64,000 nucleotides of DNA, taken from Thermoanaerobaculia bacterium (GTDB taxonomy: Bacteria > Acidobacteriota > Thermoanaerobaculia > Multivoradales > Multivoraceae). Location: the NCBI GenBank assembly GCA_963664405.1, contig OY761158.1, positions 1,952,001 through 2,016,000 of the forward strand, read 5' to 3'. Shown piece after piece: positions 20,252 through 59,043 of this stretch. The stretch's first letter is position 1. Each line of letters starts with the position of its first letter. Both the position numbers and the translations under genes were made by a program. Below the pieces are notes generated by a model that had not been told where the DNA came from, searched no databases, and saw only the letters and a list, made by a program, of their open reading frames with translations.

Positions 20252-20836
20252 GTGAGAGATTCCAGCCCCCAGCAGGTCACCCTAATTCTGGAAGCGATCA
20301 ACGCGGGGGACGCAGCCGCAGAGGATCAACTGCTGCCCCTGGTTTACGACGAGCTGCGCAAGATCGCACGATCGCGGATGGCGCGGGAGCGGCCAGGGCA
20401 GACTCTTCAGCCCACCGCCCTGGTGCACGAGGCCTATCTTCGCCTCTTCGGAGGCGAGAAGCCCAGCTGGGAGAGTCGAGCTCACTTCTTCGGCGCCGCC
20501 GGCGAAGCCATGCGTCGCATTCTGATCGAACGAGCACGCAAAAAGGGTCGACTGATGCGAGGCGGCGACCGGCGCCGCGTCGAGCTCGACACTTCGGCGG
20601 GAAGAACCGAGCCGCCTTCGGATGAGGTTCTGGCACTCGACGAATCGCTCAGCGAGCTCGAGTCGATCGACTCCAAGATGGCACAGGTCGTGAAGCTACG
20701 CTACTTCGCCGGTCTTACCGTGGAGGAAACAGCGAGCGCCATGGCCAGCTCGCCGCGAACGGTCCACCGGCAGTCGGTCGCCGCTCGAGCGTGGTTACAG
20801 AGTAAGCTGTACCCCAGCGATCAACAAGGTCAGTAG
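20252..20836 (+). CDS. ECF sigma factor, TIGR02999/kinase-associated type
   Basis: LLPLVYDELRKIA, TLQPTALVHEAYLRL, RAHFFGAA.EAMRRILI, VVKLRYFAGLTVEETA. Confidence 0.93.
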   Translation: MRDSSPQQVTLILEAINAGDAAAEDQLLPLVYDELRKIARSRMARERPGQTLQPTALVHEAYLRLFGGEKPSWESRAHFFGAAGEAMRRILIERARKKGRLMRGGDRRRVELDTSAGRTEPPSDEVLALDESLSELESIDSKMAQVVKLRYFAGLTVEETASAMASSPRTVHRQSVAARAWLQSKLYPSDQQGQ

Positions 20837-20843
20837 CAGCGCC

Positions 20844-23800: not shown

Positions 23801-23981
23801 TCCCTACGCCAGGGAGACCTGGATGGCCAACCAGCTCCGCCTCGCCTCTCTCTATCGCGAGCTGGGAAGAGCGAGCGACGCGCAGGGCGTCGAAGACGAG
23901 CTGCGCGCGATGCTGGCCTATGCCGATCCCGACTTCTGGCTCGTTCAGCAGCTGGCGGCGAACAGCCAACCCGCCCCCTGA
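20844..23981 (+). CDS. Hanks-type Ser/Thr kinase with transmembrane helix and extracytoplasmic TolB-N-like/TPR region
   Basis: GRGGMGAVY, VALK, HRDLKSSN, TDFGLA, GTPAFMAPE; hydrophobic segment; TPR-like helices. Confidence 0.93.
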   Translation: MTERSDPPGHWGLVWDLFHRALETGSEERAAFLTEACGGDKELRSEVEKLLAAHEHESQLLDLLTELAPEGDTSRPTELPEVPPEQELAPGAVLADRFEIVGLVGRGGMGAVYEAQDRELGARVALKTLLAALSGSSAALDRFRREIQLAKQVTHPNVCRIYDLFRDREGLFFLSMELLEGKTLAQHIAESGPLDLDEALPIVEQLAAGLAAAHQAGVVHRDLKSSNIMLIPEGGGTRAVVTDFGLARTTGSADAETGHLTRSGEVLGTPAFMAPEQLEGGEISPATDVYAFGVVLFEMVTGRLPFSGVTPYAVVAQRLRNEPPSPREHSPNLDRRWERVILRCLESRPADRFQTPGAIVAALLGAKATTIPSDRRRLARRSAVAAMGMAVVFGGFFLLRGDADSDAAASAEADQDSSAALPFAERDAVLITAFENRTGDEIFDGTLEGALARQLANSTFVTVATLPRIRDTLALMGLPDNAEVDTSTGREIALRDGGIRALIGGRIEKLGQTWVLSADLIDASDGRVVASLEEEAPHMEEVLGAIRRLASGMRELLGEEIDEIRESEEELARVATPSLRALRLYTEADALVARIDNAASEELLRQAIELDPDFASAHILLAYAIGNQGRPQEELFPHAERAFELAGQAPERERYFIRASYFQMSGEWEKARANYEALLRVDPYHFWGNSNMARSLSRGPRREDAPAYWVRRARGRPNDLDANFDAGYALEMIAESPEAARPYLRRVVDLAVDPNSPLQQRNGFEISWARLHPAHEHWVGNDAEGMLRELDRVAEELSQLSPGLEAAFLSAVLRSGYRSLGFRNRPPALRPISRTGSFWGGIDAYYRGDLAEVKRQLGEARSRLVWAGALIQEPPRILALVRAGFLAEARAGLASFELREETSVPDGYPARNTVTDVMKGHVALAEGRVQEALALLQSALTAGPEPGGTSYFVAASGLASAWLELGEPARALAALEESSRQKRRSHPYARETWMANQLRLASLYRELGRASDAQGVEDELRAMLAYADPDFWLVQQLAANSQPAP

Positions 23982-36446: not shown

Positions 36447-38396
36447 CTACATCGGGGGCACGAACCAGATCGGCGAGGTGAAGGCCCGCTCCTGAATCGT
36501 CGTCTGCAGGTCCGGCCGAGGCTCGACGCCGGCCCGGATCGCGTCCCAGGTCGACCAACGGCAGACCGGATTCTCGAGCACACGCACGTAGTAGAAGGCG
36601 CGCTGCGTTGGGTCGAACTCCGGGTCGGTCCAGAGCGTTTCGAGCTCTGAAGCGCCGAGGTCCGACGAGATGCTGCAGTCGCTGAGATCGACCGCCGCAC
36701 CGTTGTCGGGGCAGCGGTGAGTCTGCGCATCGGGCTCCAGGCCGTCTGAACAGGCGACGTCGAAGATGCGGTCGTGGGCCGCACCCTCCTCGACCCACCC
36801 CTTGATGACCTGCACCCGCTGCAGCGGCGCCGAGTCCGCGTCGCGAGCGGCCCAGACCAGGAAGCGCGGCGCCCGCTCACCGTCGGCGGCGAGATCGGCC
36901 CCCATCGGGACGCCGCCTTCGTAGGCCTTTGCGACCATGTCGCGATCGGAGGCGAGACCGTCGGGGTAGTCGTAACCGGCGAAGAAGCGCACCCGCATTC
37001 GCGGCCCGGTGGTCGCGAAGGTCTCCTTGCGCCGCATCGCGTCGTAGATCGACTCGCGAGTGTTCTCCTCGGCCCAGACGACAGCGAGACCGGAGGCGCC
37101 GAAGAAGCGAAGTGCCGAGTCCGTGTACACGTTGCCCTGCGCGTCGGGCTCGTCGAGAGGCACCGAGCCGCGCCGCTGCGGCGTGCCGTCGTTGATGCCG
37201 ACCTTGGAGTGAAAATTGTCCTCCTCGGGCGTCGGTCCGGCATTGTGAGTGTCGCTCGAGCCGATGAGGCCGAAGTGAAACGGATTGAAGCCCTGTTCCT
37301 CCTCGAGCAGGAGGCCGTTCATATAAGCCTCGCGAACATAGCCGTGCTTGGGCTCACTATAGAGATCGGTGCCGATGCGGTTGGGGTAGATCTCGAAGTC
37401 GGCCCACTCGTCGTTCGGAAAAAGGAGAGGATGGACCTCGGATGTGCCCTTGACCTGAGTCACTTCCACAATGGGCTCATTTCGCATCCGCAACTCGGCG
37501 TAGGCCGCGTCGAAGGGCTCTTCGCCAACCGTCTCGAGCTGGAACATGTGCCCATTCGAGCCGTTCGAGTTGTGGGGGATTGCGAGACCCTCGATACCCT
37601 GTTCGCGAAGGCCGTCGAGCCAACGCCAGAGGTCCTCTGGGTTTCTCGAGTCGGTCGATGCAAAGGGAGCCTCCGGAACCGCGCTCGAGCGAAAGATGAC
37701 GTTGCGGTGGAGGTTCCCCCGGTCCGCTGCCGAGGTCGTGTACTCGTAGCCGATCAGGGTCGTGAAGCGGCCGGGGTCGTTGTGCTGCTCTGCAGCCTCG
37801 ATGATGTCGCGCCAGGCCGCGAGCTTGGCGGAATGGATGGCGTCGGCACCCAACGCCGCGATCTCACCGCTTCTGAGTGCCTCTATCGAACGAGTGTAGC
37901 CGCCCGTATCCAGGTCTCGTAGCTCTTTGGCGAGGGGCGTTTCGCTGAGCGGGTTCTCGGGATCGTCCAAGGCGGGGAAGGTACCGAGGTAGAGACCATG
38001 GTCGGTGACCCCCATGAAGTCGAGAGGCCCGCTCTGGAGCTGAAGCGTGTGGCCACTGGGGTGGGCGACCGCTTCACCCTTGGCGTAGCGATAAGCGTCG
38101 TCGGGAGAGGCGCGGACTTTGAACATATAGGCGTCGAAAGAGTGGCGGGTGTGGACGTGAAGATCGCCGAAGTAAGCGTTGCGCAGAGAATTCGGCCCCG
38201 ATCCCTCTGAGAGGGCAGACGGGGACGAGCTCGCACCTTCCGGCTGGCGAACTTCCGTGCTCAGAGGAACAGGCGAGGGTCAAGGCAAAGATCGCCGCAG
38301 CAACACCAGGTGCAGGGGTATTCGGCGGCAGAAGTGCTCCGCCAGGTGCAGGGGTATTCGGCAGAAGAGAAGTGCCCCGGTCTTCCGATGCTTCAT
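36447..38396 (-). CDS. DUF3604 family protein (putative lipoprotein metallohydrolase); N-terminal region disrupted
   Basis: RNAYFGDLHVHT..SFDAY upstream of the called ORF; LDFMGVTDH, NLHRNVIFR, IPHNSNGSNG, GSSDTHN, IQERAFTSPIW; in-frame TGA at 38280-38282, lipobox IFALTLAC in another frame. Confidence 0.85.
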
Positions 38397-38401
38397 CGAC
38401 G

Positions 38402-39463
38402 TCACTCCCTCTCAAATACTTCCGCGACCGCGATGCCGCTTTCACCGGCAACGGCATAAAAGAGATAGACACGCCCCTCGTCCTCCAGAATCGCCGGGTC
38501 GCGAAGCTGATTCACATGCCCGTAGGCGGTGCTCCGCATCGACGGCTCGACCGGAGCGTCGGCGCCCTCCCAGTCGTATTCCGGCCTCAAGACCTCGACG
38601 TACTCGGTCTCCTTCCAATCGAGCCAGTCGCCGGAAAGGTCGATGCTGCTCAAACGAATGACCTCCGGGGCGGTACCGGCCTCGGTCCAGAACACCCACA
38701 ACCTATGGCCGCGCTTCAACAGCGCCGAGTGGCGCATGTTTGGGTTGAAGAGCATCGCGCCCTCTTCGAAATCGGTGAAGCCGTCTTTCGACCGGTAGAG
38801 CTGGCCTGGCATGGCCAAGGCATAGGTCATCTCGTCGTGATGAAAAATTCGCATGTAGGTGCGGCCAAGCACCTGCGGCTGCGCCGTGAAATCAATCCCG
38901 TTCTTCGAAGTGGCGACTCGAGATTTTTGAATCCCGACGCCGTCCAAGCCATGGAGATACATCACGATCTGGCGCCGGGCGAAGTCGACGTGAACGTCGG
39001 GCGAGGCTATGTGCGGCGTGGAGATCTCTTTGAGCATGTCGTGAGAGGCCTTCACACCCTTTCCGCTACTCGCGGCCTCCCTCTCGGCCACCATTTCCGG
39101 GGTGATCTCCGGTGGCTCGGTCAAGAAGCCCGAGTCTTCGATCTGCAAACTCCCCGGCGGGTGAATCGACCACGGGCCTGTAACTTTGTCTGCATAAGCC
39201 AATCTGATGTAGCGCCCTTTGTGATCGGCAAAGTAGAGGTAGTAGTTACCGAGTCGTCCCTCGATCCAGTCGGGAACTCGGATCACTGACGGGCCTTGAA
39301 TGTTCTGACCGATCGAAGGGTGAAGATCGGGCCCGACGATCGGTCGATCCAACAGCCGCTTGATGCGCACAGGTGACTCCCCAGCGGAAACAGTGGAGGT
39401 GATGCCGATCAGCACGATCGACGCGGCCAAGACAACCACAAGACCCTTCTTTCTCTCTCTCAT
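38402..39463 (-). CDS. Secreted hypothetical protein, putative beta-propeller glycoside hydrolase-like; paralog of 59890-60873
   Basis: GPSVIRVPDW..YYLYFADHKG.YIRLAYAD, HIASPDVHV, VNQLRDPAI, YAVAGE.GIA. Confidence 0.7.
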   Translation of the reverse strand: MRERKKGLVVVLAASIVLIGITSTVSAGESPVRIKRLLDRPIVGPDLHPSIGQNIQGPSVIRVPDWIEGRLGNYYLYFADHKGRYIRLAYADKVTGPWSIHPPGSLQIEDSGFLTEPPEITPEMVAEREAASSGKGVKASHDMLKEISTPHIASPDVHVDFARRQIVMYLHGLDGVGIQKSRVATSKNGIDFTAQPQVLGRTYMRIFHHDEMTYALAMPGQLYRSKDGFTDFEEGAMLFNPNMRHSALLKRGHRLWVFWTEAGTAPEVIRLSSIDLSGDWLDWKETEYVEVLRPEYDWEGADAPVEPSMRSTAYGHVNQLRDPAILEDEGRVYLFYAVAGESGIAVAEVFERE

Positions 39464-39484
39464 CGGCCTAGGGTAGCAGCTCAT

Positions 39485-39648
39485 CTAGACCAGCGTTTCC
39501 AAAGTTCGTGTACATAGCTCGAGGTCATTCTGTTTGCTGGCAAGGCGCACCGACGCAGGCATATTGGGAATATGTCGAGGAGACGGAACGCCGCCAGCGA
39601 GCAGAAGGGGCCGAGATCTGTGCGCGAACTTTGGAAACGCTGGTCTAG
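39485..39648 (+). mobile_element. Palindromic MITE copy 2 (164 bp)
   Basis: Same terminal inverted repeats and core as 6305-6471. Confidence 0.88.
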
Positions 39649-39699
39649 TCCATACACCGAGACAGCTTGTCGCGCAGGAACCTGGGCCAGGTCTCCTCC

Positions 39700-40809
39700 T
39701 CATGCCGCGGAACCGTCGCCCGCGTCCAGTTCCTGGTAGCGCGCAATGCCGACCCGCTTGCCGATGCGCTCGCGCGCTTCGGCGGTCGACTCGTCGAGAG
39801 GGATACCACTGGCGTCGGCAACGCGGACATTGCAGCTGAAGATCGCAACGATGCCGGCTGCATCAACAAGCGCCTCGGAACCAAGGGCCACCGACAGCTG
39901 GTCACGGACTGCGTCGAGCTCTTGGTCCGATCCAACCACGACAGCATCCGCAAAGCGCGCCAGTAGCCGCCCCTGAGGAACCCCGCCGTCGCCCTCGCCT
40001 TCGCCGGTCACCAGATCCAGGTCGGTCTTCGTCTCGCTCTCGTAGCCGCTCGCACGGAGCAGCGCGCTATGCGCTGTGGTTCAGTAAAAGCAGTCGTTGA
40101 GGTACGAGACTCGCGCGGCAAGCAGCTCGATCTGGGTGCGCGTCAACTGTCGACCCGAGTCGACATCCGGGCGCGCCACGATGTCGAAGGGGAGGTAGTA
40201 GGCCTGCTCGATGCGATCGAGGTTGTGCACCTCGTCCGGCACCAGACTCAAGGCCTGGCGCACATAGGGGACGTGGCTGTGGCCCCCATAAACCTCGCGC
40301 AAGCCGTCCTCGGGAGAAACCAGGGGCACCCAGGCGACATCGCGCCGCGCGTCGGCTGGCCGACGGCGGCTGGGCTCACCGGGCGACGGCGACGGGAGTT
40401 CTGCTACCGGCAGGTCGAGCGCGCGATGGAAGGTGTCGGTCGAGACCGTGGTGATGACCACGCCGATCAGCTCCACATAGCGCTCGTCTTCCAGACCTTC
40501 GGCGCGCAGCGAGTCGAGCCAGCTCTCGGTCAGCCGGCCCGGATCGGTGACGATACGGTGCACCGCGTCGACGTAGACTTCGGCGAGGGGGCCTGAGCCC
40601 GAGTGACGCCCAGGAACGCCGTAGGGAGAGAGAGCGGCCTTTCTCTTCCGGCACAGCTCACAGGAGTGGGCCTTTCGGCATTCCGACGCGATCGCGAGGC
40701 GCTCTTGCGCGGTCCACCAGGTGCCGGCGGTACCAAGCCGTTCCCAGGCCTCATTCTGCGCTTGGAGAAGGTCCGGACGGATCGGTATCTGGTCGCCCTG
40801 GTAGTTCAA
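39700..40809 (-). CDS. AhpD-like alkylhydroperoxidase-related selenoprotein (CFYU; Sec at TGA 40081-40083)
   Basis: ORFs 40081-40890 and 39700-40011 are in frame with no other stop; readthrough gives ELLAARVSYLNDCFY-U-TTAH, the AhpD core; hairpin downstream; likely TTG start after AAGGAG. Confidence 0.85.
40045..40063 (-). promoter_or_regulatory. Putative bacterial SECIS element
   Basis: 17 nt after UGA: GCUGCUC-CGUGC-GAGCGGC (7-bp stem with one G-U pair). Confidence 0.7.
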
Positions 40810-40825
40810 ACGTCCCGCGACTCCT

Positions 40826-41977
40826 TCACAGGATGAAACCTTTGGTATCCAGGCCGACGAGAGTCCGTCCGTAAACCAGCGAAGCTTCATCGAAGTTGAC
40901 CGTCTGATGTTTCGTCGCCATCGTCACGTCGCGGAAAGCCTTCTGCAGCGGACTGTCGTCGAAGACCGATCTTGCACCGGTCGCAGCAATCAGACGGTTC
41001 ACAGATCGCCGACACAACTCCACCGCATAGCAGGCCTGGAACTTCGCCTCGGCGCGAAGCGGCAGCGAGTCGCTGCCGTTCGCCGCCTGCTCGAGCAGGT
41101 CGATGGCCGAATCCAGCAGCTTCTCCGCGCACAGGACTTCGGCCTTCGCCTCGGCAAAGCGAGTGTGGAGGCCGGGGCGGTCCAGCTTCTTCCTACCGGT
41201 GTATTTGTCGGACTGGACCCCCATCAGCTCACTCGCAGCATCGATCGCGCCGCGAGCGAGCCCGAGACTCGAGGCACCGGCGTGGACCGCCAGGCCCGGC
41301 ATGATCGGGATCTTGTAGGTATTCGTAGCATGCCTACTCGCCCACTCAGAACGCGCGCCGAAAAGGACGCCGCTGTCCATCACTCGGTGCTCGGGCACGA
41401 GGACCTTGTCCGCCACCACCTCGACGCTGCCGGTGCCGCGCAGGCCGAGGGCATGCCAGTTGTCGTCGAGCTCGAGATCGGAGCGCGGCACAATCGCGTG
41501 GTAGAGCCTCGGCCTCTCCTCACTGTGGTCGACCGTGCCCATCAGAAACCAGGAGCCATGGGCGGCACCGCTGACAAAACCCCAGCGGCCGGAAAGGGTC
41601 CATCCATCTTCGCGGCGCTCGATGACCCCGGCCGGAGCCAGCGAGCCCGCCGACACCAGATCCGGATCCGCCCACACCTCGTCCTGGGCCTGCTCCGGAA
41701 AGCTGGCCATGATCCAGTCATGCCCGGTGGAGACCATCAGCACCCAGGCGGCGGAGCTGCATCCTCTGGCACACTCGCTCACCATCTCGAGCATCACCCG
41801 CAAATCGCCCTCATCCCCACCGGCGCGGCGCGGAACCAGCGCGCGAAAAAGGCCCGCCTCGCGCATCGCCGCGACACTCTCATCGGCCAGGGATCGCGCA
41901 AGGTCCGAGGCTTCGGCGTGGGCGCTGAGGGTCTCGAGCAGTGTCGGACTGACAGAAGACGCGGCCGATACGTTCAT
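40826..41977 (-). CDS. Acyl-CoA dehydrogenase-fold flavin-dependent monooxygenase (HsaA/HpaH-like)
   Basis: GLFRALVPRRAGG, ARGCSSAAW, LSGRWGFVSG, DNWHALGLRGTGS, PLQKAFRD; AGGAG RBS. Confidence 0.88.
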   Translation of the reverse strand: MNVSAASSVSPTLLETLSAHAEASDLARSLADESVAAMREAGLFRALVPRRAGGDEGDLRVMLEMVSECARGCSSAAWVLMVSTGHDWIMASFPEQAQDEVWADPDLVSAGSLAPAGVIERREDGWTLSGRWGFVSGAAHGSWFLMGTVDHSEERPRLYHAIVPRSDLELDDNWHALGLRGTGSVEVVADKVLVPEHRVMDSGVLFGARSEWASRHATNTYKIPIMPGLAVHAGASSLGLARGAIDAASELMGVQSDKYTGRKKLDRPGLHTRFAEAKAEVLCAEKLLDSAIDLLEQAANGSDSLPLRAEAKFQACYAVELCRRSVNRLIAATGARSVFDDSPLQKAFRDVTMATKHQTVNFDEASLVYGRTLVGLDTKGFIL

Positions 41978-42024
41978 TTCATGCTCCTGAATTGACCGGG
42001 GCCCTTCAATTTTCATGTCCTTGA

Positions 42025-42053
42025 TTGAATCCCAACCGGCCGACCGGTAGGAT
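42025..42053 (+). promoter_or_regulatory. sigma70-like promoter, probably leaderless transcript
   Basis: TTGAAT-17 bp-TAGGAT-6 bp-ATG(42060); no Shine-Dalgarno sequence. Confidence 0.55.
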
Positions 42054-42059
42054 AACAGC

Positions 42060-43334
42060 ATGCTGACCGGAGCGACCACCACCATCACGGTCATCTCGTT
42101 GCTTCTCACCTGGGGAGGCGCCTTGCAGGAGCAGAGCGAACTGCGACCTGCGGTCATCCATCCGAAAGAGATGGTGGAGCGCCGCTTCGCCCCTAGCGCT
42201 CCGGAAGTAGGTGAGGCGATGCCGGACCTGCCGGTATACGACTCAGAGGGAGAAGAGCTGAGGTTTCGCGACCTGGTGCGAGGGCAGCACACGGTCGTGA
42301 TCCTCGGCTGTCTCACCTGACCCCCCTTCCTCTCTCTGGTCTCCCGGGTGGAGACCGTCGCGCGGGACTACACTCCGAAGGGAGTGCGCTTCTACTACCT
42401 GTACAAAGCGTTGGCGCATCCGGAGTACCACGGGTACATCACCCCTTTCACCCTGGAAGAGCGCCTGATGCACGCCAAGGAGGCGGAGCGCCGCCTGGGC
42501 TCCCGTATCCCCTGGATCGTCGACGCAATGACCAACGACCTGAAACACGCTTTGGGCTACGCACCCAACAGTGAGTTCGTCGTTGATCCCGAGGGCAAAG
42601 TGGTGCGTCGACGAGCCTGGAGCGACCCCGACGCCCTGCGAGCGGATCTCGAAGAGCTCGTCGGCGCGGTCGAAAGACCGACCCGCGTCGCGGATCTCGA
42701 CATGCCGACCCAACCGCCCCCGGCCCCCACTGTAGCCACGGGTGTAGTGCCAGGAGTCGAGGTCGCGGGGCACATGCGAGCGCTGCGCCTAACGCCCGAG
42801 CTCGAGGGCAACAAATACCCCTTCTACGTAAAGCTCCGCGCCGAGGCCGACCAGAGCTTCCTGGCCGAGGCCGAAGGTCAGATCTACCTCGGCTTCCATC
42901 TCGACCCCCTCTACGAGATGCACTGGAACAACCTCGCTCCACCTCTCGAGCTCGAGATCACGGCACCGGAAGGAGTGCGGGTGACGCCGACCAAGCTCGC
43001 GGCGACGACGCCGAAGGAAGAGGCGGACGCCGATCCTCGCGAGTTCCTCGTCCGCATCGAGGCCGACCCGGGCCAGCGAGATCCTCTGAAGCTCTCGGTT
43101 CTGTACTACGCCTGCGACAACGCCAACACTTTCTGCGTTCCGGTGCGGCAGAGCTACGCCGTGCACCTCACCGCCGACAGCGACGGTGGCAGCCCCTTCA
43201 GCCGCACCGCGATGCCGGCAGGAGAGGGCGTCCTCGGCGACATGGACACAAATGGAGATGGCACCATCGACCGCGATGAGCTGGAGGCGAAAGAAAGGGA
43301 GCTCGACGTTTTGCTCGAGCAGGCGCCCGACTAG
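42060..43334 (+). CDS. Exported deiodinase-like thioredoxin-fold selenoprotein (CLTU; Sec at TGA 42318-42320) with Ig-like dithiol domain and EF-hand
   Basis: ORFs 42060-42320 and 42348-43334 are in frame; readthrough gives VILGCLT-U-PPF...YLYKALAHP...IVDAMTN (deiodinase-like motifs); YYACDNANTFC; DTNGDGTIDRDE. Confidence 0.85.
42338..42356 (+). promoter_or_regulatory. Putative bacterial SECIS element
   Basis: 17 nt after UGA: GGUCUCC-CGGGU-GGAGACC (perfect 7-bp stem). Confidence 0.75.
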
Positions 43335-43345
43335 TACCAACCTCC

Positions 43346-44590
43346 ATGGACTTCAATGACTCCCCCACCGAGGCCGCCTTCCGAAACGAGGTCCGGGCCT
43401 GGCTCCAGGCCAATGCCGAGCCCAGGACCGGTCCCCCCGAGCACATCTTCACCCTTCGAGGCGACGAGGCCGAGTACGTCCGTCGCGCCAAAGTCTGGCA
43501 GGCGAAGAAGCACGACGCCGGTTACGCCGCCATCCACTGGCCGAAGGAGGACGGCGGTGGCGGCGGCACGCCGATGCAGGCCCTGATCTTCGGTGAGGAG
43601 GAATCCAGGTACCGAGTGCCACAGGGAGCCTTCACGGTCGGCATGGGGATGTGTGGACCGGTACTGAGGCTCTACGCGGACAAGCAGACCAAGGAACGCC
43701 TGCTTCCACCCCTGGTGCGGGGAGAGGACCTCTGGTGCCAACTCTTTTCAGAGCCTACCGCGGGTTCAGACCTCGCCGGTTTGCGAACCCGCGCCGAGCG
43801 CGACGGCGACTCGTGGGTAGTGAACGGCCAGAAGGTCTGGACCTCGATGGCGAACCACGCCAGCTACGGCATCCTGGTCGCGCGTCACGACCCCAGCCTG
43901 CTCAAGCATAAGGGCCTCACTTTCTTCTGGCTCGATATGAAAAGCCCCGGCATAGAGGTCAAACCGATCAAGCAGATCTCGGGCGCCGCGGGTTTCAACG
44001 AGGTCTTCTTCACCAACGTTCGCATTCCCGACTCCCAGCGCCTCGGTAAAGTCGGCGAGGGCTGGCAGGTCTCGCTGGCGACGCTGATGAACGAGCGAGT
44101 GGCGGTGTCCAGCCCTGGACCGCCTGACTTCGACGATATCTTCGCGTTGGCGCGAGATCTCGGCCTCGTCAACGGACCCGCCGGCACGGCGGTGCGATCC
44201 CGCCTCGCCGACTGGTACGTCGAGGCGCAAGGATTGCGCTTGACCGGTGCCCGCACCCTGACGCGACTCAGCCGCGGAGAGAATCCTGGGCCTGAGTCGT
44301 CGATCGAGAAAGTCGTCGCCTCCACCAAGCAGCAGGAGATTGCGTCGTTCGGCACCGACTTGCTCGAATATGCCGGCGTGCTCCTGAACCAGGAGACACT
44401 GCCGGGCGAGGGCTTGTTCCAAACCGGATATCTCTCGTCTCCCGGCCGTCGCATCGCCGGAGGAAGCACCGAGATCTTGCGCAACGTGATCGCCGAACGC
44501 GTCCTGGGCTTGCCGGGAGACATCCGCGTCGACCGCGATCTCCCTTTCAATGAGATCCCGACGGGGAACAGTCCCCCACCCTCGCGATGA
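43346..44590 (+). CDS. Acyl-CoA dehydrogenase
   Basis: WCQLFSEPTAGSDLA, VNGQKVWTS, FNEVFF, IAGGSTEILRNVIAERVLGLP. Confidence 0.95.
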   Translation: MDFNDSPTEAAFRNEVRAWLQANAEPRTGPPEHIFTLRGDEAEYVRRAKVWQAKKHDAGYAAIHWPKEDGGGGGTPMQALIFGEEESRYRVPQGAFTVGMGMCGPVLRLYADKQTKERLLPPLVRGEDLWCQLFSEPTAGSDLAGLRTRAERDGDSWVVNGQKVWTSMANHASYGILVARHDPSLLKHKGLTFFWLDMKSPGIEVKPIKQISGAAGFNEVFFTNVRIPDSQRLGKVGEGWQVSLATLMNERVAVSSPGPPDFDDIFALARDLGLVNGPAGTAVRSRLADWYVEAQGLRLTGARTLTRLSRGENPGPESSIEKVVASTKQQEIASFGTDLLEYAGVLLNQETLPGEGLFQTGYLSSPGRRIAGGSTEILRNVIAERVLGLPGDIRVDRDLPFNEIPTGNSPPPSR

Positions 44591-45216
44591 CCGACCACAA
44601 CGCCGACACTGCGGGCAGTGCCTCCGCCGGGCTTCCGAGTACGACGCGGACAGAGGAGATCTACCAGGCCGCCGTCGCCCTCTTCCTCGAGCGCGGCTAC
44701 GACGCAACGCCCCTGTCCGTCATCGCAGCGAAGCTCGGGCTCACCAAGGCCGGTCTCTACCACCACTTCGAGAGCAAAGAGGACCTGCTCTTCCACATCC
44801 ATCGCCACCTGATGACAGAGCGTCTGTTGCCAGTGATCGAGGCAGCCGAACGAGAGTCGGATCCGGAGCTCCGCCTGCGACAATACATCTGCGACTTCAC
44901 CGCGCTGATGGCCTCTGACCCCGCTATCCGCCTATTGATCGAAGAATCGAAGCGGCTCTCGCCCGAGCATCTCGATGCGATCCGTGCGGTTTGGAGACGG
45001 GGCTACCAGTTGATGCGAAGCTCGATCGAGGAGCTCAAACAATCGGGCCGCTGCAAGCAGACACTAGACCCGACCTACGCCGCCTTCGCGGCGATCGGGA
45101 TGTGTACCTGGACCCTCTACTGGTTCGATCACGACCGCCCAGACACGATTCACGAGATCTCGGAGGCTTTCTCGAGCATCTTTCTGAGCGGTGTTCTCGA
45201 AGATGAGGCCGGCTAG
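44587..45216 (+). CDS. TetR family regulator (KstR2-like)
   Basis: LFLERGYDAT..IAAKLGLTKAGLYHHFESKEDLL; GMCTWTLYWF. Confidence 0.92.
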   Translation: MTDHNADTAGSASAGLPSTTRTEEIYQAAVALFLERGYDATPLSVIAAKLGLTKAGLYHHFESKEDLLFHIHRHLMTERLLPVIEAAERESDPELRLRQYICDFTALMASDPAIRLLIEESKRLSPEHLDAIRAVWRRGYQLMRSSIEELKQSGRCKQTLDPTYAAFAAIGMCTWTLYWFDHDRPDTIHEISEAFSSIFLSGVLEDEAG

Positions 45217-45227
45217 GGGCACAATCG

Positions 45228-45800
45228 TCACTCTTCGGCAGAGCTCAGAAACGTCTTCAGCCAGCCTCTCGCCCGCTGCCAGTCGCGCTGGGCGGTACGC
45301 AGAGAGATAGACAGAGCCTCCGCCGTCTCTTTCTCGGAGTAGCCTGCAAACAAGCGGCACTCCACGACCTGGACCAGGCGAGGATCGTAGGACGCGAGCT
45401 TCTCCAGCGCTTCGTCAACAGCGAGGAAGCCCTCCGCCTGTGCGGCGACGGCGACCCTGCCTTCGTCGAGCTCGAGATCTGGCTTGCCGCCACCACGCTT
45501 GTGCCGCGTCTTGCGTTTGGCGTAGTCCACCAGAATCTGACGCATAGCGCGGGCGGCGATGGCGAAGAAGTGGGAGCGGTCCGCGAAGGTGGCCGCCCTC
45601 TGTGCCACCAGCTTGATGTAGGCCTCGTGAACGAGCCCGGTGGTGTCGAGCGTGTGCCCTGGGCGCAATCGCCGCAGCTGCCCGCGGGCGATGCGCCGTA
45701 GGTCTTCGTAGATCAGTGGCACCAGCCGATCGAAGGCGCCCTCCTCACCGCGGACATGGGCTTGGAGGATCCCGGTCAGGTCTTCGCTGGACGATGACAT
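45228..45800 (-). CDS. ECF sigma factor, TIGR02999/kinase-associated type
   Basis: LVPLIYEDLRRIA, HTLDTTGLVHEAYIKL, RSHFFAIAARAMRQILVD, RTAQRDW. Confidence 0.93.
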   Translation of the reverse strand: MSSSSEDLTGILQAHVRGEEGAFDRLVPLIYEDLRRIARGQLRRLRPGHTLDTTGLVHEAYIKLVAQRAATFADRSHFFAIAARAMRQILVDYAKRKTRHKRGGGKPDLELDEGRVAVAAQAEGFLAVDEALEKLASYDPRLVQVVECRLFAGYSEKETAEALSISLRTAQRDWQRARGWLKTFLSSAEE

Positions 45801-46762: not shown

Positions 46763-49755
46763 ATGGCGGCTCGAAAAAAGCGCACCAACCCCACCCTTCG
46801 CAGGTGGTCGGAGGTCGACGCTCTCCTCCGTCAAGCCTTGGAGCGGCCCACGGAGGAGCGGCCTGAATTCCTGGCTGAGGCGTGTCGGGACGACACCGAG
46901 CTGCACGCAGCGGTCGGGGCCCTACTCGCCGCATCCGAGGAGGACACGAGCGGCCTCGCGACCGGAGCGGGCGTCGACGGTCCGTTATTGCAGGAGTTAC
47001 TCGAAGAGCTCGTGCCGGAAGCGTCCCCTCCCGGCTTCGGCGAAGGGAAAGCGAAGGCGATGGCCCTAGATTCGGGCACTCGTCTTGGCAACTACGAGGT
47101 TGTCTCCAGCCTCGGCGCCGGAGGAATGGGAGAGGTCTATCGTGCCCGCGACGAGAAGCTGGGGCGCGAGGTGGCGATCAAGCTCCTTCGCCAGGAAGTC
47201 TCGAACGACCCTGAGCGTCTTGCGCGATTCACTCGCGAGGCGCGAGTTCTCGCTTCTCTGAATCACCCCAACATCGCAACCCTGCACGGATTTGAGACCG
47301 CACAGGACACCCCGTTCCTTGTCATGGAGCTGGTCGAAGGAGAGACGCTGGCGGAGAGGATCAAGCGTGGAGCGATCCCGGTCGAGGAGGCGCTCGCACT
47401 CTTTCTGCAAATCGCCGATGGCTTGGAGGCTGCCCACGATAAGGGCGTCATCCATCGCGATCTCAAGCCGGCGAACATCAAAGTGACCGACGAGGGTGCT
47501 GCGAAGATTCTCGATTTCGGTCTGGCCAAGGCGATGACGGCAGAGTCGACGATGGGAGACCCGAACTCCTCGGAATCGCCGACGCTGACTGCGGCGGCCA
47601 CGAAGCCTGGGCAGATCCTCGGGACCACCGCCTACATGTCGCCAGAGCAGGCAAAGGGGGGCGCCGTCGACAAGCGGGCTGATGTATGGGCGTTCGGCGC
47701 GTGCCTCTACGAAGCCCTGACCGGCGAACGCGCTTTCCAGGGAGACAGTGCACAAGACGTTCTCGGCTCGGTGCTGAAGCTCGACCCGGCATGGGACGCT
47801 CTGCCGTCGGCCACTCCCACTCCGCTGCGGCGCCTCCTCCGCCGCTGCCTCGAGAAGAACCCCAACGACCGCCTGCGCGACATCGGTGATGCTCGCCTTG
47901 AGCTGTGTGAAGCCTTCGCGACTCCTGCGAGCGATGAGCCGACGACACGCGAGGTCAGCAAGGAGAGGCGCAGCCTCAGTCTGGCCCGCGCCTCCGTCGT
48001 CACCGGCGCGGTGACCGCCGCCATAGCGGTGATCGCCGGGCTCGCATTCTGGACCTCGAGGCCTGATCCTATTCCGCCCGAGCGCCTCGTGGTCCGCTCT
48101 GTGCTGAGCGCCGCTCCCAGCGCGTCGGTGACAGTTTCCCCTTTCGGGCGCGATCTGGCGGTGGGCCCCGACGGCCGGGTGGTCGTGTACCAGAGCGAAG
48201 GCTCTCTCTATGCTCGCCCTACAGACAGCCTCGTCGGATCCCAGCTGGCAGGGACGGAGGGCGCGTCGACTCCCTTCTTTTCGCCCGACGGGGCCTGGGT
48301 CGGCTTCGCAGCCGGCGGCAGTCTCAAGAAGGTCTCCCTTCTCGGGGGACCGACGGTGAGGCTGGCCGATCTAGCCGGCGGCATTCTCACCGGCGCAAGC
48401 TGGGGCGCTGACGACACCATCATCCTCGGCTTTTCCGACGGCCTCTATCGAGTGTCGGCAGAAGGGGGCAGGCCGGAGCTGCTTCTAGCGCCAGATCCGG
48501 AGAGAAGAGAGATATATCGCAGCCCTGAGCTATTACCCGGCGGCCAGACCGTACTTTTCACTCTCCGCCCGAGCACGAGCCCCGAACAAGAGCAGATCAT
48601 GGCCCTGTCTCTCTCTACCAGGAAGCAGAAAGTCCTGCTCTACGGTGGAGGCACTGCCCGGTACGTGCCCACGGGACACTTGGTCTACGGGCTCAACGGT
48701 GCGCTGCTAGCCGTGGCCTTCGATGCCGAGAGTTTGGAGGTCAGGGGAAATCCGGTTTCCGTCCTGGAAGGCGTCTCCAGCAAGGCCGCTGGTCGTACCG
48801 TAAGCTTCGACTTCTCGCAGAACGGGTCCTTGGCGTACGTCACGTCAGGCGGATGGTCACGAGCGACCTTGGCCTTGGTGGGGCGGGACGGACAGGAGGA
48901 GGTCCTCTCTACCCCCCCCCTCGGCGCTACCAGTATCCTCGCATCTCTCCGGACGGGCAACGGATAGCAGTCTCCTCTGCTGATGAAAACCAGGATGTGT
49001 GGATCTGGGACCTCGGTCGGGAGACGCTGGATCAGTTGACCCGCGATCCTGGACGAGACCTGACTCCGGTCTGGACTCCTGATAGTCGCGAAGTGGTGTT
49101 CAGCTCGAACCGTGGCGGGAGCTTCGACCTTTACCAGAGGGCGGCGGACGGCACGGGCCCTGTGAAGACTCTGACTGAGAGCAACGAGCCGCTATCTCCC
49201 TCGTCTTTTTCCCCTGATGGCAAGCTTCTCGTCTACCGTGTAGGCATGTTGGCAGGGTTCGATCTAGGGGTACTATCGTTCGAGGGCGAGGGGGCACAAG
49301 AGCCGCTTCTCGTAGCGGAGATCGATGAGTGGAACGGGGAGATCTCACCCGACGGTCGTTTCCTCGCCTACCAATCGGACGAATCAGGCGAGGACGAGAT
49401 CTATGTGAGGCCATTCCCAGAAGTCGAGAGCGGTCGCTTCCCGATCTCAGCTGGCGGCGGCACAGAACCGCTTTGGTCGCCAGACGGGAGCGAGATCTTC
49501 TATCGTGTCGACGATCGGGTGATGGCAGCGCCAATCCAGACCGACCTCGCGTTCGAAGCGGGGAACCCACAGGAGCTCTTGAGGGGGGTCCATGCCGGTG
49601 CCTCCCAAGGAGGCCGCAGTTACGACATCCACCCGGACGGTGAACGTTTTCTCACCATCCTCCCGGCGGAGACGAACGAGCAAGGATTGGGGATTCAGGT
49701 CATTCTGGTCGAGAACTGGTTCGAGGAGCTGAAACGCCTGGTGCCCGTCGACTGA
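46763..49755 (+). CDS. Ser/Thr kinase with extracytoplasmic PD40/TolB-like propellers; frameshift at C9 run 48912-48920
   Basis: GAGGMGEVY, HRDLKPAN, DFGLAK, GTTAYMSPE; SPDG repeats continue in ORF 48853-49755 ending VENWFEELKRLVP. Confidence 0.9.
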
Positions 49756-56987: not shown

Positions 56988-57859
56988 CTAGGAGGTCGGA
57001 TCTTCGGAGGAGGACCTCGCTCCGGGAAGGGGCGGAAGCTCCACGAAGTCGCCGGGTCGCTTCTCTTTGTTCGCCGTCATCGCCTCCATGACCTCCTCGT
57101 TCTGCGACATGCTGGCGTTCCAGATGGCGATGTAGTCGAGGGAGTCGGCCGTCGAGTGATCGCGGGCGTGGTTGATCATCCGCTTGCAGCCGTAGACCGC
57201 CAGCGGCGGTTTGCCGGCAATCTCTTGCGCAATCTGATCGACCTCGGCGAGCATCGTCTCCTGATCGGGAAAGACTCGGTTGACCAGACCAACCTCCCTC
57301 GCCTCCGCCGCCGACATTCGGCGACCGGTGTAGGCCAGCTCGCGGGCGATACCCTCCGGAATCAACTTCGCGATGCGCGGAAAAGTACCGACGTCGGCGG
57401 TCATCCCGATATTGATCTCGAAAATGGTGAAGAAGGCGTCCTCGGTCGCATAGCGCATGTCGCAAGCTGTAGACAGGTCGACGCCACCCCCGATCGCCCC
57501 CCCTGAATGCAGGCAAGCACCGGCACCCGGCAGTTCTCGAGGCAGGAAAAGGAATGCTGCATCTCGAGCACATTCCCGTAAAAGCGCGCGCCGTGCTGCA
57601 GGCGAGTCTTGCGTGCAGCCTCCGGGTCATCGTCCTTCGAGCCGCCGCCGAAGGACCCCAGATCGAGTCCCGCCGAAAAGTGCGGGCCTGTGGAAGAGAG
57701 GACGATCACCCTGGCCCTAGAGCTCGCGTCGATATCCTTCACGATCCGGGGCAGCTCGTCCCAGAAAGCGGGGATCATGCTGTTGCGCTTCTCGGGGCGA
57801 TTCAACACCACATGAGCGACCCGATCCGAAATGCGAACATCGAAACACTCGTAACTCAT
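56988..57859 (-). CDS. Enoyl-CoA hydratase/crotonase family; frameshift at homopolymer 57497-57503
   Basis: LNRPEKRN, FSAGLDL, PVLACIQG/AIGGGVDL, EINIGMTADVG. Confidence 0.88.
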
Positions 57860-57873
57860 ATGTACCGCCTCCC

Positions 57874-59043
57874 TCAAGCCTCGAGAAACTTACCCATCCG
57901 GTCCAAGGCGGTGCGAATGTTCTCCACGCTGTTGGCATAGGAGAAGCGCACAAAGCCCTCGCCGAGAGCGCCGAAGCTGGTGCCCGCCACGGTCGCCACT
58001 CCGATCTCTTCGAGCAGCCGATTCTGAATGGTACGAGCGTCCAGGCCCGTCCCTTCGATATTGGGGAAGGCGTAGAACGCTCCGGCTGGGCGCCGGCAGC
58101 GCACCCCGGGGAGTGCATTGAGGCCGTCGACGATCACCTCGCGACGCTCGTCGAATGCCCGCACCATCTCGTCGACCGCGTCCTGCGGACCCTCCAGCGC
58201 AGCGATCCCGGCGAACTGGGCGGAGGCGTTGACGCAGGAGTGGCAGTTGACCGCCAAGCGGGTGGCACCTTCGACCAAGGTCTCGGGCCAGACCGCATAT
58301 CCCAAGCGCCAGCCGGTCATGGCAAAAGTCTTGCTCCAGCCATCGAGCAAGATGAGCTGGTCGACGAGCTCGGGATAGGCCAAGAGGGTGGTGTGCCCCA
58401 GCCCGTCGTAGGTGATGCGCGAGTAGATCTCGTCGCTAAGCACTGCCACATGGGGGTGCTCCGCCAGCCCCGCCACCAGGCGATCGATCTCGGCCTTCAG
58501 CACCGCGCCTCCGGTCGGATTGGCCGGTGAATTGAGGATGAGGAGCCGGGTGCGAGGAGTGATGAGACTCAGCACTTCGTCGGCGTCGAAGGAGAAGTCC
58601 TTATCCTCGAGGAGCGGCGTCGGGATCGCCTTGGCCCCGGAAAAGATGATCATCGACTCGTAGATCGGGAAGCCCGGATTTGGGTAGAGGATCTCCGCGC
58701 CAGGCTCTCCGAACATCAAAATGGCGAAGAACATCGTCGGCTTGCCGCCCGGCATGATCACGATGCGCTCAGGGCTGACCTCCACCCCACGGTACTTCAG
58801 AATGTCCGCGGCTACCGCTTCGCGCAGCGCGGGGATCCCCGGTGAAGGGGTGTAGCCATGGTGGCCATCGTGCAGCGCCTTGACCGCTGCCTCGACGATA
58901 TGCGGAGGGGTCTTGAAGTCCGGCTGGCCGATCCCGAGGTTGATGATGTCGCGCCCTTCGCGAGCGAGAGCCTCGGCCCGCGCCAGCACTTCGAAGGCGG
59001 TCTCGGTCCCCAGCCGCCCCATCTTTTCCGATAACTTGAGCAT
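57874..59043 (-). CDS. PLP-dependent class I/II aminotransferase (aspartate aminotransferase-like)
   Basis: LGIGQPDF, NSPANPTG, SDEIY, DGWSKTFAMTGWRLGY, GAFYAFP, VRFSYA. Confidence 0.95.
   Translation of the reverse strand: MLKLSEKMGRLGTETAFEVLARAEALAREGRDIINLGIGQPDFKTPPHIVEAAVKALHDGHHGYTPSPGIPALREAVAADILKYRGVEVSPERIVIMPGGKPTMFFAILMFGEPGAEILYPNPGFPIYESMIIFSGAKAIPTPLLEDKDFSFDADEVLSLITPRTRLLILNSPANPTGGAVLKAEIDRLVAGLAEHPHVAVLSDEIYSRITYDGLGHTTLLAYPELVDQLILLDGWSKTFAMTGWRLGYAVWPETLVEGATRLAVNCHSCVNASAQFAGIAALEGPQDAVDEMVRAFDERREVIVDGLNALPGVRCRRPAGAFYAFPNIEGTGLDARTIQNRLLEEIGVATVAGTSFGALGEGFVRFSYANSVENIRTALDRMGKFLEA

What the first reader, a model, noticed from the sequence alone, without database searches (positions are those of the whole stretch)
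39700..43334. Two hidden selenoproteins flanking a flavin monooxygenase: candidate selenium-dependent redox/dehalogenation cluster
Seen: two pairs of split ORFs are each one reading frame broken by a single TGA at a catalytic Cys position (CFY-TGA-TTAH and GCLT-TGA-PPF). They are transcribed divergently around an HsaA-like flavin monooxygenase and followed by an acyl-CoA dehydrogenase and a TetR regulator. Established: AhpD uses a CxxC motif, iodothyronine deiodinases use S/CxxU-P, and bacterial AhpD-like and deiodinase-like selenoproteins have been reported separately. Inference: co-location suggests a catabolic module, possibly for halogenated or aromatic compounds, with peroxide control. 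I am not aware of this combination being described, but could not search for it.
Basis: partly seen in the sequence, partly recalled or inferred. Interest (0 to 1): 0.85.

Follow-up and report, generated by a model that had tools for sequence, protein, structure and literature searches.

The report
Two known-family selenoprotein genes, side by side
Two neighbouring genes each use a TGA codon for selenocysteine, but both belong to selenoprotein families already described, and their position around a flavin monooxygenase is not repeated in other genomes.

Summary
One reading frame on the minus strand (40809/40890..39700) has a single in-frame TGA at 40083..40081 (NDCFY-U-TTAH). One on the plus strand (42060..43334) has a single in-frame TGA at 42318..42320 (GCLT-U-PPF). 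Both show full-length Cys homologues, conservation on both sides of the TGA, and a hairpin 16-17 nt downstream with a G-containing 5-nt loop.

Neither is new. The first scores 438 bits against NCBIfam NF041238, 'AhpD_rel_CFYUT' (cut-off 175). A 2026 review equates that family with 'hypothetical protein 1' of the 2005 Sargasso Sea study. 79 of 80 related loci carry TGA at the same position. The second is a deiodinase-like protein fused to an EF-hand, a selenoprotein fusion reported in 2021. It appears to be exported, unlike its cytoplasmic-type neighbours.

The proposed pathway is not supported. Among 80 loci of the AhpD-related family with up to 10 kb of flank, 0 hold the deiodinase-like gene. 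Three hold a weak HsaA-like hit and no neighbour is conserved.

Verdict: two real selenoprotein genes, new members of known kinds; the module idea is unsupported; low interest.

The parts
39700..40890 (-). AhpD-related (seleno)protein gene, NF041238 family. Likely start is TTG 40809 (GAAGGAG 11 nt upstream); an alternative ATG at 40890 has no Shine-Dalgarno. Stop is TGA 39702..39700.
   Evidence: (438 bits, cut-off 175)
40081..40083 (-). Sec codon (UGA) of the AhpD-related gene, residue 270 counted from ATG 40890. Motif E255-x11-C267-F-Y-U270-T-T-A-H274.
   Evidence: TGA at this position in 79 of 80 related loci, TGC in 1
40045..40063 (-). SECIS-type hairpin: 7-bp stem and 5-nt loop CGUGC. The stem begins 17 nt after UGA.
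   Evidence: -11.6 kcal/mol; 76 sequences, 85.7% of cells paired against 26-47% when slid, 4 of 7 pairs with compensatory changes
40826..41977 (-). Group-D (acyl-CoA-dehydrogenase-fold) flavin monooxygenase, HsaA/HpaH-like but below both equivalog cut-offs. Start is ATG 41977 (AGGAG upstream).
   Evidence: (227 bits against 450)
41978..42059 (.). 82-bp divergent intergenic spacer between the monooxygenase and deiodinase-like genes. No sigma-70-like promoter was found by the consensus scan.
42060..43334 (+). Deiodinase-like / beta-sandwich / EF-hand selenoprotein gene, 424 aa with Sec. Domains: N-terminal hydrophobic helix (res 5-21), Trx fold (about res 47-205), beta-sandwich (about res 239-372), EF-hand loop.
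42318..42320 (+). Sec codon (UGA), residue 87, motif G-C84-L-T-U87-P-P-F.
42337..42357 (+). SECIS-type hairpin: 8-bp stem (one G-U pair) and 5-nt loop CGGGU. The stem begins 16 nt after UGA. Single-sequence evidence only.
   Evidence: (-12.5 kcal/mol)
43113..43136 (+). Nearly invariant Cys pair C352...C359 (YYAC-DNANTF-C-VPV) in the beta-sandwich domain. Candidate second redox centre, weakly DsbD_N-like.
43245..43280 (+). Canonical EF-hand loop, DTNGDGTIDRDE.
   Evidence: EF-hand_5, 22 bits, below the gathering score; homologues have strong EF-hands
43346..44590 (+). Acyl-CoA dehydrogenase, 11 nt after the deiodinase-like stop. All three ACAD domains present; pimC-like at 213 bits against a 624 cut-off.
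44587..45216 (+). TetR-family regulator. Its start overlaps the ACAD stop by 4 nt.

Best explanation
The region holds two genuine selenoprotein genes of two families that are already described. They happen to lie either side of a flavin monooxygenase gene in this genome.

(1) A cytoplasmic-type AhpD-related protein (NCBIfam NF041238, 'CFYUT' family) made of tandem AhpD/CMD-like halves. Sec270 takes the place of the second Cys of the AhpD signature E-x11-C-x-x-C-x-x-x-H. Inferred mechanism: the selenolate attacks a peroxide or an oxidised partner, C267 resolves the Se-S bond, and an unknown reductant recycles the pair.

(2) An exported deiodinase-like thioredoxin-fold protein with Sec87 in C-L-T-U-P-P-F. 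It is followed by a beta-sandwich domain with a nearly invariant Cys pair and by an EF-hand. Inferred mechanism: an extracytoplasmic selenol/thiol oxidoreductase whose second Cys pair relays electrons, possibly modulated by Ca2+.

Each UGA is decoded with the help of a hairpin that starts 16-17 nt downstream and has a 5-nt loop beginning CG.

Shown: reading frames, family membership, Sec/Cys pairing, and hairpin conservation for gene 1. Inferred: chemistry, cellular location and electron donors.

The adjacency to the monooxygenase, ACAD and TetR genes is lineage-specific and is not a conserved functional module.
For: AhpD-related gene:
- NF041238 equivalog, 438 bits against a cut-off of 175, E 2.4e-131.
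- 117 of the 120 best database homologues are N-terminal pieces ending exactly at C-x-Y/F. Two are full-length Cys forms reading CFYC(T/S)..H. One ends otherwise.
- 79 of 80 genome loci have TGA at the site and 1 has TGC.
- The sequence downstream of the TGA is conserved in 76 loci.
- The hairpin is supported by covariation. It is absent from the single Cys-form locus.
- selA lies directly downstream in 8 of 80 loci.

Deiodinase-like gene:
- The best solved-structure sequence match is mouse Dio3. E 3.3e-4 for the single protein and 4.5e-7 for the family profile, aligning GCLT-U-PPF with GSCT-C-PPF, and AHP with AHP.
- Of the 120 best hits, 116 start just after the TGA site and 4 span it (3 Cys, 1 Ser).
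- Of the 150 best representatives, 56 span the site (39 Cys, 10 Asp, 2 Thr, 2 Ala, 2 Asn, 1 Glu) and 71 start just after it.
- The structure model is confident (pLDDT 90), with a Trx fold plus a beta-sandwich.

Both genes:
- Both hairpins pass a bSECIS-like rule that 44 of 1549 TGA triplets in the window pass.

Literature:
- NF041238 is listed as 'hypothetical protein 1, Sargasso Sea' (PMC13188914).
- The deiodinase-like/EF-hand fusion selenoprotein has been reported (PMC9402790).

No conserved module:
Against: - No selA, selB, selD or tRNA-Sec gene lies in the 64-kb window. The rest of the roughly 6.8-Mb contig could not be read, so the capacity for Sec insertion is inferred, not shown.
- Neither hairpin folds significantly better than shuffled sequence on its own (z -1.0 to -1.7).
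- The deiodinase-like hairpin has no comparative support, because no homologous DNA could be fetched.
- The window protein scores below the Pfam T4_deiodinase gathering score (25.0 against 27) and far below NF038285 (59 against 250).
- The 20-nt overlap of the monooxygenase and AhpD-related genes, and the 11-nt gap between the deiodinase-like and ACAD genes, suggest co-transcription in this genome. A local functional link is therefore not excluded.
- Synteny was tested only from the AhpD-related side, and most of the 80 loci are from marine Proteobacteria rather than close relatives.
Confidence: 0.8

Rival explanations
1. The two selenoproteins, the flavin monooxygenase, the ACAD and the TetR regulator form one selenium-dependent catabolic module, possibly for halogenated or aromatic compounds. 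The deiodinase-like enzyme would dehalogenate and the AhpD-like enzyme would control peroxide.
For: - The genes are tightly packed: 82-bp divergent spacer, 20-nt overlap, 11-nt gap and 4-nt overlap (coordinates).
- The Trx domain is closest in sequence to iodothyronine deiodinase among solved structures.
- Flavin monooxygenases can release peroxide (general knowledge).
Against: - 0 of 80 AhpD-related loci carry the deiodinase-like gene within 10 kb. HsaA-like hits occur in 3 of 80 (26-29% identity, only one adjacent), ACAD in 4 of 80 and TetR in 3 of 80, all weak.
- No conserved neighbour was found.
- The deiodinase-like family looks exported and is fused to varied extracytoplasmic domains, not to catabolic enzymes.
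- No dehalogenase, ring-cleavage or flavin reductase gene was seen among the 33 larger ORFs scanned.
- The top-120 lists of the three proteins share no contig length other than the window's own.
Confidence: 0.06
2. A narrower local link. In this lineage only, the AhpD-related selenoprotein is translationally coupled to the flavin monooxygenase. It serves that enzyme, for example by removing peroxide from uncoupled flavin hydroperoxide or by reducing a product. The deiodinase-like operon is unrelated.
For: - The monooxygenase stop (40826) overlaps the likely AhpD-related start (TTG 40809, good Shine-Dalgarno) by 20 nt.
- One related locus (L015) has an ACAD-fold monooxygenase-like gene directly downstream of its AhpD-related gene.
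Against: - Only 3 of 80 loci have any such gene nearby, and those are distant paralogues (26-29% identity) in different orientations.
- The closest locus (L001, 58% identity) has DUF3604 upstream instead.
Confidence: 0.15
3. The TGA codons are real stops. The genes would be pseudogenes or naturally short proteins, and the downstream ORFs are not translated as part of them.
For: - Gene callers annotated the pieces separately.
- No Sec machinery is visible in the window.
Against: - TGA is kept at the same codon in 79 of 80 loci across several phyla, with conserved protein sequence and a covarying hairpin after it.
- Cys forms run straight through the site.
- The catalytic His of the AhpD motif, and most of the deiodinase-like Trx fold, lie after the TGA.
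Confidence: 0.03

Closest known systems
NCBIfam NF041238 'AhpD_rel_CFYUT', alkylhydroperoxidase-related (seleno)protein. Listed as 'hypothetical protein 1' (CxxU) of the Sargasso Sea selenoproteome (PMC1088965, passages read; equated in the table of PMC13188914, passages read).
   Same: Full-length match to the model (positions 1-356 of 357). Same CFY-U-T motif, the same TGA position as 79 of 80 related loci, and the same SECIS hairpin.
   Different: Nothing of substance. The neighbours differ, as they do throughout the family.
Deiodinase-like selenoprotein fused to an EF-hand domain (Fig. 2B and text of PMC9402790, 2021; passages read). Bacterial deiodinase-like selenoproteins go back to PMC1088965 (2005).
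   Same: [quoted passage not shown]
   Different: I could not see the paper's figure or sequences, so identity of the family is inferred from the description. Here the extra Cys pair is placed in a separate beta-sandwich domain.
Mouse iodothyronine deiodinase 3 and 2 catalytic domains (PDB 4tr3, 9h48)
   Same: Best sequence match among solved structures. Shares T-U/C-P-P-F and A-H-P. 20-22% identity, target-normalised TM 0.69-0.75.
   Different: - The Cys is at -3 rather than -2 from Sec (C-L-T-U against S-C-T-U).
- In the printed alignment, the two Glu residues preceding A-H-P in Dio3 (YIEEAHP) are Ala-Leu here (YKALAHP).
- ResA/TlpA-type oxidoreductases superpose as well or better (TM about 0.8).
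- Below the Pfam and NF038285 cut-offs.
- Thyroid-hormone substrates are not expected in bacteria (PMC1088965).
AhpD-type alkylhydroperoxidase domains (PDB 6k40 AhpD, 2oyo peroxidase-related protein; M. tuberculosis AhpD chemistry is recalled, not from a call)
   Same: CMD/AhpD core domain with E-x11-C-x-x-C/U-x-x-x-H.
   Different: - About 370-400 aa with an extra N-terminal half that resembles the C-terminal half of an AhpD-like domain and has its own invariant C77-x-x-C80.
- Scores far below the TIGR00777 AhpD cut-off (16.5 against 192).
DsbD N-terminal domain (PF11412; PDB 1l6p, 1jpe) and the Trx + beta-sandwich C-terminal part of M. tuberculosis DipZ (2hyx)
   Same: A Trx-fold domain joined to an Ig-like beta-sandwich. 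The sandwich carries a conserved Cys pair. One homologue is above the Pfam cut-off, and nDsbD entries recur among fold hits with the highest identities, 17-20%.
   Different: - The window protein itself has no PF11412 hit.
- Fold matches are weak (E 1e-3 to 1e-2, TM about 0.5) and mixed with unrelated sandwiches.
- The Cys spacing is C-x6-C.
Known neighbouring selenoprotein genes (Prx/SelW, Prx-like/AhpD-like) and selenoprotein operons (PMC2398784 and PMC13188914, passages read)
   Same: Two redox selenoprotein genes within about 2 kb of each other.
   Different: This pair (NF041238 plus deiodinase-like/EF-hand) is not among those named in the passages I read. It is also not conserved in the 80 loci examined.

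Membership tests
NF041238 AhpD_rel_CFYUT (seleno)protein | Score at or above the curated cut-off over the whole model | tested here: met
   438.2 bits against 175, model positions 1-356 of 357
NF041238 AhpD_rel_CFYUT (seleno)protein | C-F-Y-U/C-T motif, with UGA or Cys at the same column and His four residues later | tested here: met
   CFY-TGA-TTAH in the window. TGA in 79 of 80 loci and TGC in 1. Cys forms P0139 and P0164.
Bacterial selenoprotein gene (general) | SECIS hairpin just downstream of UGA with G in a small apical loop. The 16-37 nt UGA-to-loop distance rule is recalled, not taken from a call. | tested here: met
   Both sites pass; 44 of 1549 TGA triplets in the window pass the same rule. 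Covariation exists for the AhpD-related hairpin only. No Rfam model matched.
Bacterial selenoprotein gene (general) | selA, selB, selC (tRNA-Sec) and selD present in the genome | not testable with these tools
   None in the 64-kb window. The rest of the contig (6,780,313 bp) is not available.
Bacterial selenoprotein gene (general) | Cys-containing homologues aligned at the UGA position | tested here: met
Iodothyronine deiodinase family (Pfam PF00837) | Score at or above the gathering threshold | tested here: not met
   25.0 bits against 27 for the window protein. 19 of 36 family members match at E <= 0.1. One relative reaches 29.8 bits.
Iodothyronine deiodinase family (Pfam PF00837) | Active-site T-U-P-P-F and the A-H-P motif | tested here: met
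   Alignment to 4tr3; the profile's best PDB hit is Dio3
Iodothyronine deiodinase family (Pfam PF00837) | Reductive dehalogenase activity | not testable with these tools
   Needs an enzyme assay
NF038285 bacterial 'deiodinase family protein' | Score at or above the cut-off | tested here: not met
   59.1 bits against 250; only model positions 175-322 of 347 match
Deiodinase-like / EF-hand fusion selenoprotein (PMC9402790) | Deiodinase-like domain with Sec, plus an EF-hand domain in one polypeptide | tested here: met
   (most homologues carry PF13405/PF13499/PF13202/PF00036)
HsaA (NF045629) for the middle gene | Equivalog cut-off | tested here: not met
   226.9 bits against 450; HpaH-type 207 against 650. 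It is an ACAD-fold flavin monooxygenase-like protein of unassigned substrate.
DsbD N-terminal domain (PF11412) for residues about 225-385 | Pfam match and nDsbD-like fold with a redox Cys pair | tested here: inconclusive
   No hit for the window protein. 7 of 36 relatives match at E <= 0.1 and P0038 scores 26.7 against 25. Fold hits to nDsbD have E about 3e-3 and TM about 0.5. The Cys pair is nearly invariant.

The most novel reading that the evidence does not exclude
In this lineage the 82-bp divergent spacer and the TetR regulator may tie both operons into one regulon. An exported, Ca2+-sensing deiodinase-like selenoenzyme, fed by its own DsbD_N-like Cys-pair domain, would reduce or dehalogenate an external substrate. 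The substrate would then be oxidised inside the cell by the flavin monooxygenase and the ACAD, with the AhpD-related selenoprotein guarding against peroxide. My evidence does not exclude this for this genome. It shows only that the arrangement is not general.
Probability: 0.05. Interest if true: 0.6.

Novelty: new member of a known kind. Interest (0 to 1): 0.2.

Why it matters
It matters mainly for annotation. Standard gene callers split both genes at the TGA, and almost all database homologues are stored as fragments: 117 of 120 for one family and 116 of 120 for the other. The catalytic residue is therefore missing from the records.

The case also shows that two neighbouring selenoprotein genes do not by themselves define a pathway.

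[quoted passage not shown] Here they sit in a separate beta-sandwich domain with weak DsbD_N likeness, in proteins that look exported. This suggests an extracytoplasmic selenol/thiol relay rather than a deiodinase.

Tried and rejected
- A first genome scan with a broad 13-sequence alignment failed because it had no conserved stretch. It was repeated with a closer 12-sequence alignment.
- A covariance model built from the AhpD-related SECIS alignment found only its own site in the window (56.6 bits). It did not find the deiodinase-like hairpin at any E <= 10. The model is dominated by family-specific coding sequence, so this says little.
- Rfam returned no match at gathering scores for the whole window, and only one chance-level hit for 39600..42500.
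- tblastn of the deiodinase-like protein against plasmids found nothing.
- The promoter/terminator consensus scan of 39300..45400 gave 0 promoter-like sites, and 3 terminator-like sites against 3.5 expected.
- I compared contig lengths across the top-120 lists of the three proteins to look for co-occurrence. None was shared other than the window's own. This is weak evidence only.
- The fold search of the C-terminal domain alone gave only weak, mixed beta-sandwich hits.
- Other TGA sites with hairpins (24134+, 54829-, 54101-) lie out of frame with the real genes.
- The ESM Atlas look-up did not accept the read-through protein and was dropped.
- A reassigned TGA (code 4 or 25) was considered and rejected, because TGA ends many well-supported genes here.
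- No complex prediction was run, since no binding claim is made.


Full report
**What is there**

The window is a 62-65% GC chromosomal stretch. Its genes include polA, TonB-dependent receptors, RND efflux pumps and two ECF-sigma/Ser-Thr-kinase pairs. The best-named relatives of the two genes come from Acidobacteriota-type MAGs, so an acidobacterial origin is likely. That origin is inferred.

On the minus strand, one frame runs from 40890 (more likely from TTG 40809) to 39700. It has a single internal TGA at 40083..40081, reading NDCFY-U-TTAH. On the plus strand, one frame runs 42060..43334 with a single internal TGA at 42318..42320, reading GCLT-U-PPF.

Between them lies an ACAD-fold flavin monooxygenase gene on the minus strand (41977..40826). 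After the plus-strand gene come an acyl-CoA dehydrogenase (43346..44590) and a TetR gene (44587..45216).

One detail of the finding needs correcting. The AhpD-like gene is downstream of the monooxygenase gene and co-directional with it, overlapping it by 20 nt. Only the deiodinase-like gene is divergent, across an 82-bp spacer.

**More than chance?**

Yes. TGA is a normal stop in this DNA. Among 16 in-frame TGAs with long, high-GC3 open stretches on both sides, only these two carry recognisable redox motifs. The other hairpin-bearing candidates that I checked lie out of frame with the real genes.

**Gene 1 (minus strand)**

Family membership:
- It scores 438 bits (cut-off 175, E 2.4e-131) against NCBIfam NF041238, 'AhpD_rel_CFYUT', an alkylhydroperoxidase-related (seleno)protein.
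- The 2005 paper lists 'hypothetical protein 1' with a CxxU motif (passages of PMC1088965).

Sec/Cys pairing:
- Of the 120 best database homologues, 117 are about 245-aa pieces ending exactly at C-x-Y/F (111 at CFY). Two are full-length Cys forms (CFYCT..H and CFYCS..H). One ends otherwise.
- A scan of one genome per species found 440 relatives, of which the best 80 loci were kept. 79 of these 80 have TGA at the site. One, from a Mycobacteriales MAG, has TGC.
- The part after the TGA is conserved in 76 loci.

SECIS hairpin:
- In an alignment of the 63 nt from the TGA (76 sequences), a 7-bp hairpin with loop CGUGN is conserved. 85.7% of cells are paired, against 26-47% when the partner columns are slid. 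Four of 7 pairs show compensatory changes.
- In the window this hairpin is 40063..40045 (-11.6 kcal/mol).
- The single Cys-form locus lacks it.

Other evidence:
- selA lies directly downstream in 8 of 80 loci.
- The motif E255-x11-C267-x-x-U270-x-x-x-H274 matches the AhpD core (TIGR00778/TIGR00777 region).
- The N-terminal half resembles the C-terminal half of an AhpD-like domain and has its own invariant CxxC.
- That Sec replaces the attacking Cys of AhpD is my recollection of M. tuberculosis AhpD chemistry. It is not a result from a call.

**Gene 2 (plus strand)**

Family membership:
- The Trx-type domain is closest in sequence to iodothyronine deiodinase. Pfam T4_deiodinase gives 25.0 bits, just under the gathering score of 27.
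- The best solved-structure hit is mouse Dio3 (E 3.3e-4). It aligns GCLT-U-PPF with GSCT-C-PPF, and AHP with AHP. With a family profile the E-value is 4.5e-7.
- It is not a member of NCBIfam NF038285 (59 bits against 250).

Sec/Cys pairing:
- Of the 120 best hits, 116 start just after the TGA site and 4 span it (3 Cys, 1 Ser).
- In an exhaustive search of 1.84 billion representatives, 1274 matched at E <= 0.001.
- Of the best 150 of those, 56 span the site (39 Cys, 10 Asp, 2 Thr, 2 Ala, 2 Asn, 1 Glu) and 71 start right after it. A further 17 are later fragments and 6 are other forms.

Structure:
- A confident model (pLDDT 90) shows an N-terminal hydrophobic helix, a Trx fold, a beta-sandwich and a short helical tail holding a canonical EF-hand loop.
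- Fold matches are the Trx + sandwich part of DipZ, then ResA/TlpA-type oxidoreductases (TM about 0.8), then Dio3 and Dio2 (TM 0.69-0.75, with the highest identities).
- The sandwich carries a nearly invariant Cys pair, C352 and C359.
- Its likeness to the DsbD N-terminal domain is only suggestive. There is no Pfam hit for the window protein. 7 of 36 relatives match at E <= 0.1, and one further relative is above the cut-off. nDsbD entries recur among weak fold hits.

Location:
- Relatives have clear signal-peptide-like N-termini.
- The module is found fused to EF-hand arrays, arylsulfotransferase, YHYH, DUF3179, Lcl_C, beta-helix/PMP repeats and an esterase.
- This points to an extracytoplasmic location. 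That is an inference; no signal-peptide predictor was available.

SECIS hairpin:
- The candidate is 42337..42357, an 8-bp stem with loop CGGGU (-12.5 kcal/mol).
- Its geometry is almost the same as the hairpin of gene 1.
- Both pass a bSECIS-like rule met by 44 of 1549 TGA triplets in the window.
- It rests on this one sequence. Neither hairpin beats shuffled controls on its own.

**Is it a module?**

In the 80 loci (up to 10 kb each side):
- 0 hold a deiodinase-like gene.
- 3 hold an HsaA-like hit (26-29% identity; one adjacent, one 1.9 kb away, one on the other strand).
- 4 hold an ACAD hit.
- 3 hold a weak TetR hit.
- 7 hold DUF3604, one of them weak.

Clustering all ORFs within 6 kb gave no conserved neighbour. 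The largest families were a TonB-dependent receptor (15 loci), an ABC ATPase (12), SDR (9), and acyl-CoA synthetase, TauD and SelA (8 each).

The four acidobacterial-type loci (L001, L002, L029, L038) also lack the arrangement, though some have short flanks.

The monooxygenase has relatives at 55-65% identity in other MAGs and one at 98% on a 12-kb contig. No contig length is shared with the lists of the two selenoproteins, other than the window's own (one search compared).

The likely exported location of gene 2's product also argues against one joint pathway with the cytoplasmic-type neighbours.

Co-transcription of monooxygenase + AhpD-related, and of deiodinase-like + ACAD + TetR, remains plausible in this genome because of the overlaps and short gaps. 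A lineage-specific link therefore cannot be excluded.

**What stayed unchecked**

- The Sec machinery of the source genome. The window holds no tRNA gene and no SelA/SelB/SelD domain.
- The genomic neighbourhoods and SECIS covariation of the deiodinase-like family.
- The closed metagenome and viral contig collections.
- Supplementary files of the cited papers.
- The figure of PMC9402790.

**Verdict**

Both proteins are new members of families already described (2005, 2021, NCBIfam). The 'candidate selenium-dependent redox/dehalogenation cluster' is not supported. Interest is low. The residual value is correct annotation, plus the hint that the deiodinase-like/EF-hand proteins are exported two-centre redox proteins.

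Noticed in passing
L077:11276-12709 (-), and 7 further loci of L001-L080: In 8 of 80 loci the selenocysteine synthase gene selA (Pfam SelA, E 8e-149 for the representative) lies 16-384 bp, or in one case 2.9 kb, downstream of the AhpD-related selenoprotein gene, convergently.
   Followed up: partly
window 36447-38126 (-); L001:8016-9653 and others: A DUF3604 gene lies 1.6 kb beyond the AhpD-related gene in the window. DUF3604 genes occur within 10 kb in 7 of 80 related loci (one weak), directly adjacent in the closest locus L001. This may be a weak association or chance.
   Followed up: partly
window 56988-57877 (-): An enoyl-CoA hydratase gene is split into two overlapping ORFs in different frames. 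The N-terminal part matches ECH_1 positions 3-70 and the C-terminal part positions 113-248. This is a frameshift: a pseudogene or a sequencing error, not a TGA read-through.
   Followed up: partly
L058:9247-10203: The only Cys form among the 80 AhpD-related loci (a Mycobacteriales MAG, CTYCATGH, codon TGC) lacks the conserved SECIS hairpin sequence.
   Followed up: yes
proteins P0332, P0350, P0352, P0354, P0358-P0360, P0370, P0371, P0386: A branch of the deiodinase-like/sandwich module has Asp or Asn at the Sec/Cys position and usually Asp or Glu at the -3 Cys (G-D-L-T-D-P-x-F). Members scanned (P0332, P0352, P0354) are fused to beta-helix or PMP-repeat domains. These look like redox-dead variants.
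   Followed up: no
window 20252-23981 (+), and 45228-45800 (-) with 46763-48967 (+): There are two pairs of a PF07638-type ECF sigma factor next to a Ser/Thr protein kinase gene. One pair lies immediately beside the TetR gene of the cluster.
   Followed up: no
window 38402-39484 (-) and 59890-60873 (+): Two ORFs with only sub-threshold Glyco_hydro_43 likeness (20 and 17 bits) and no NCBIfam name. Both are otherwise unexplained.
   Followed up: no
protein P0393: A 98%-identical copy of the monooxygenase sits on a separate 12,234-bp contig. The clusters holding the window's own selenoprotein fragments each list 2 contigs. A very close relative probably shares the region. I did not look into it.
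   Followed up: no
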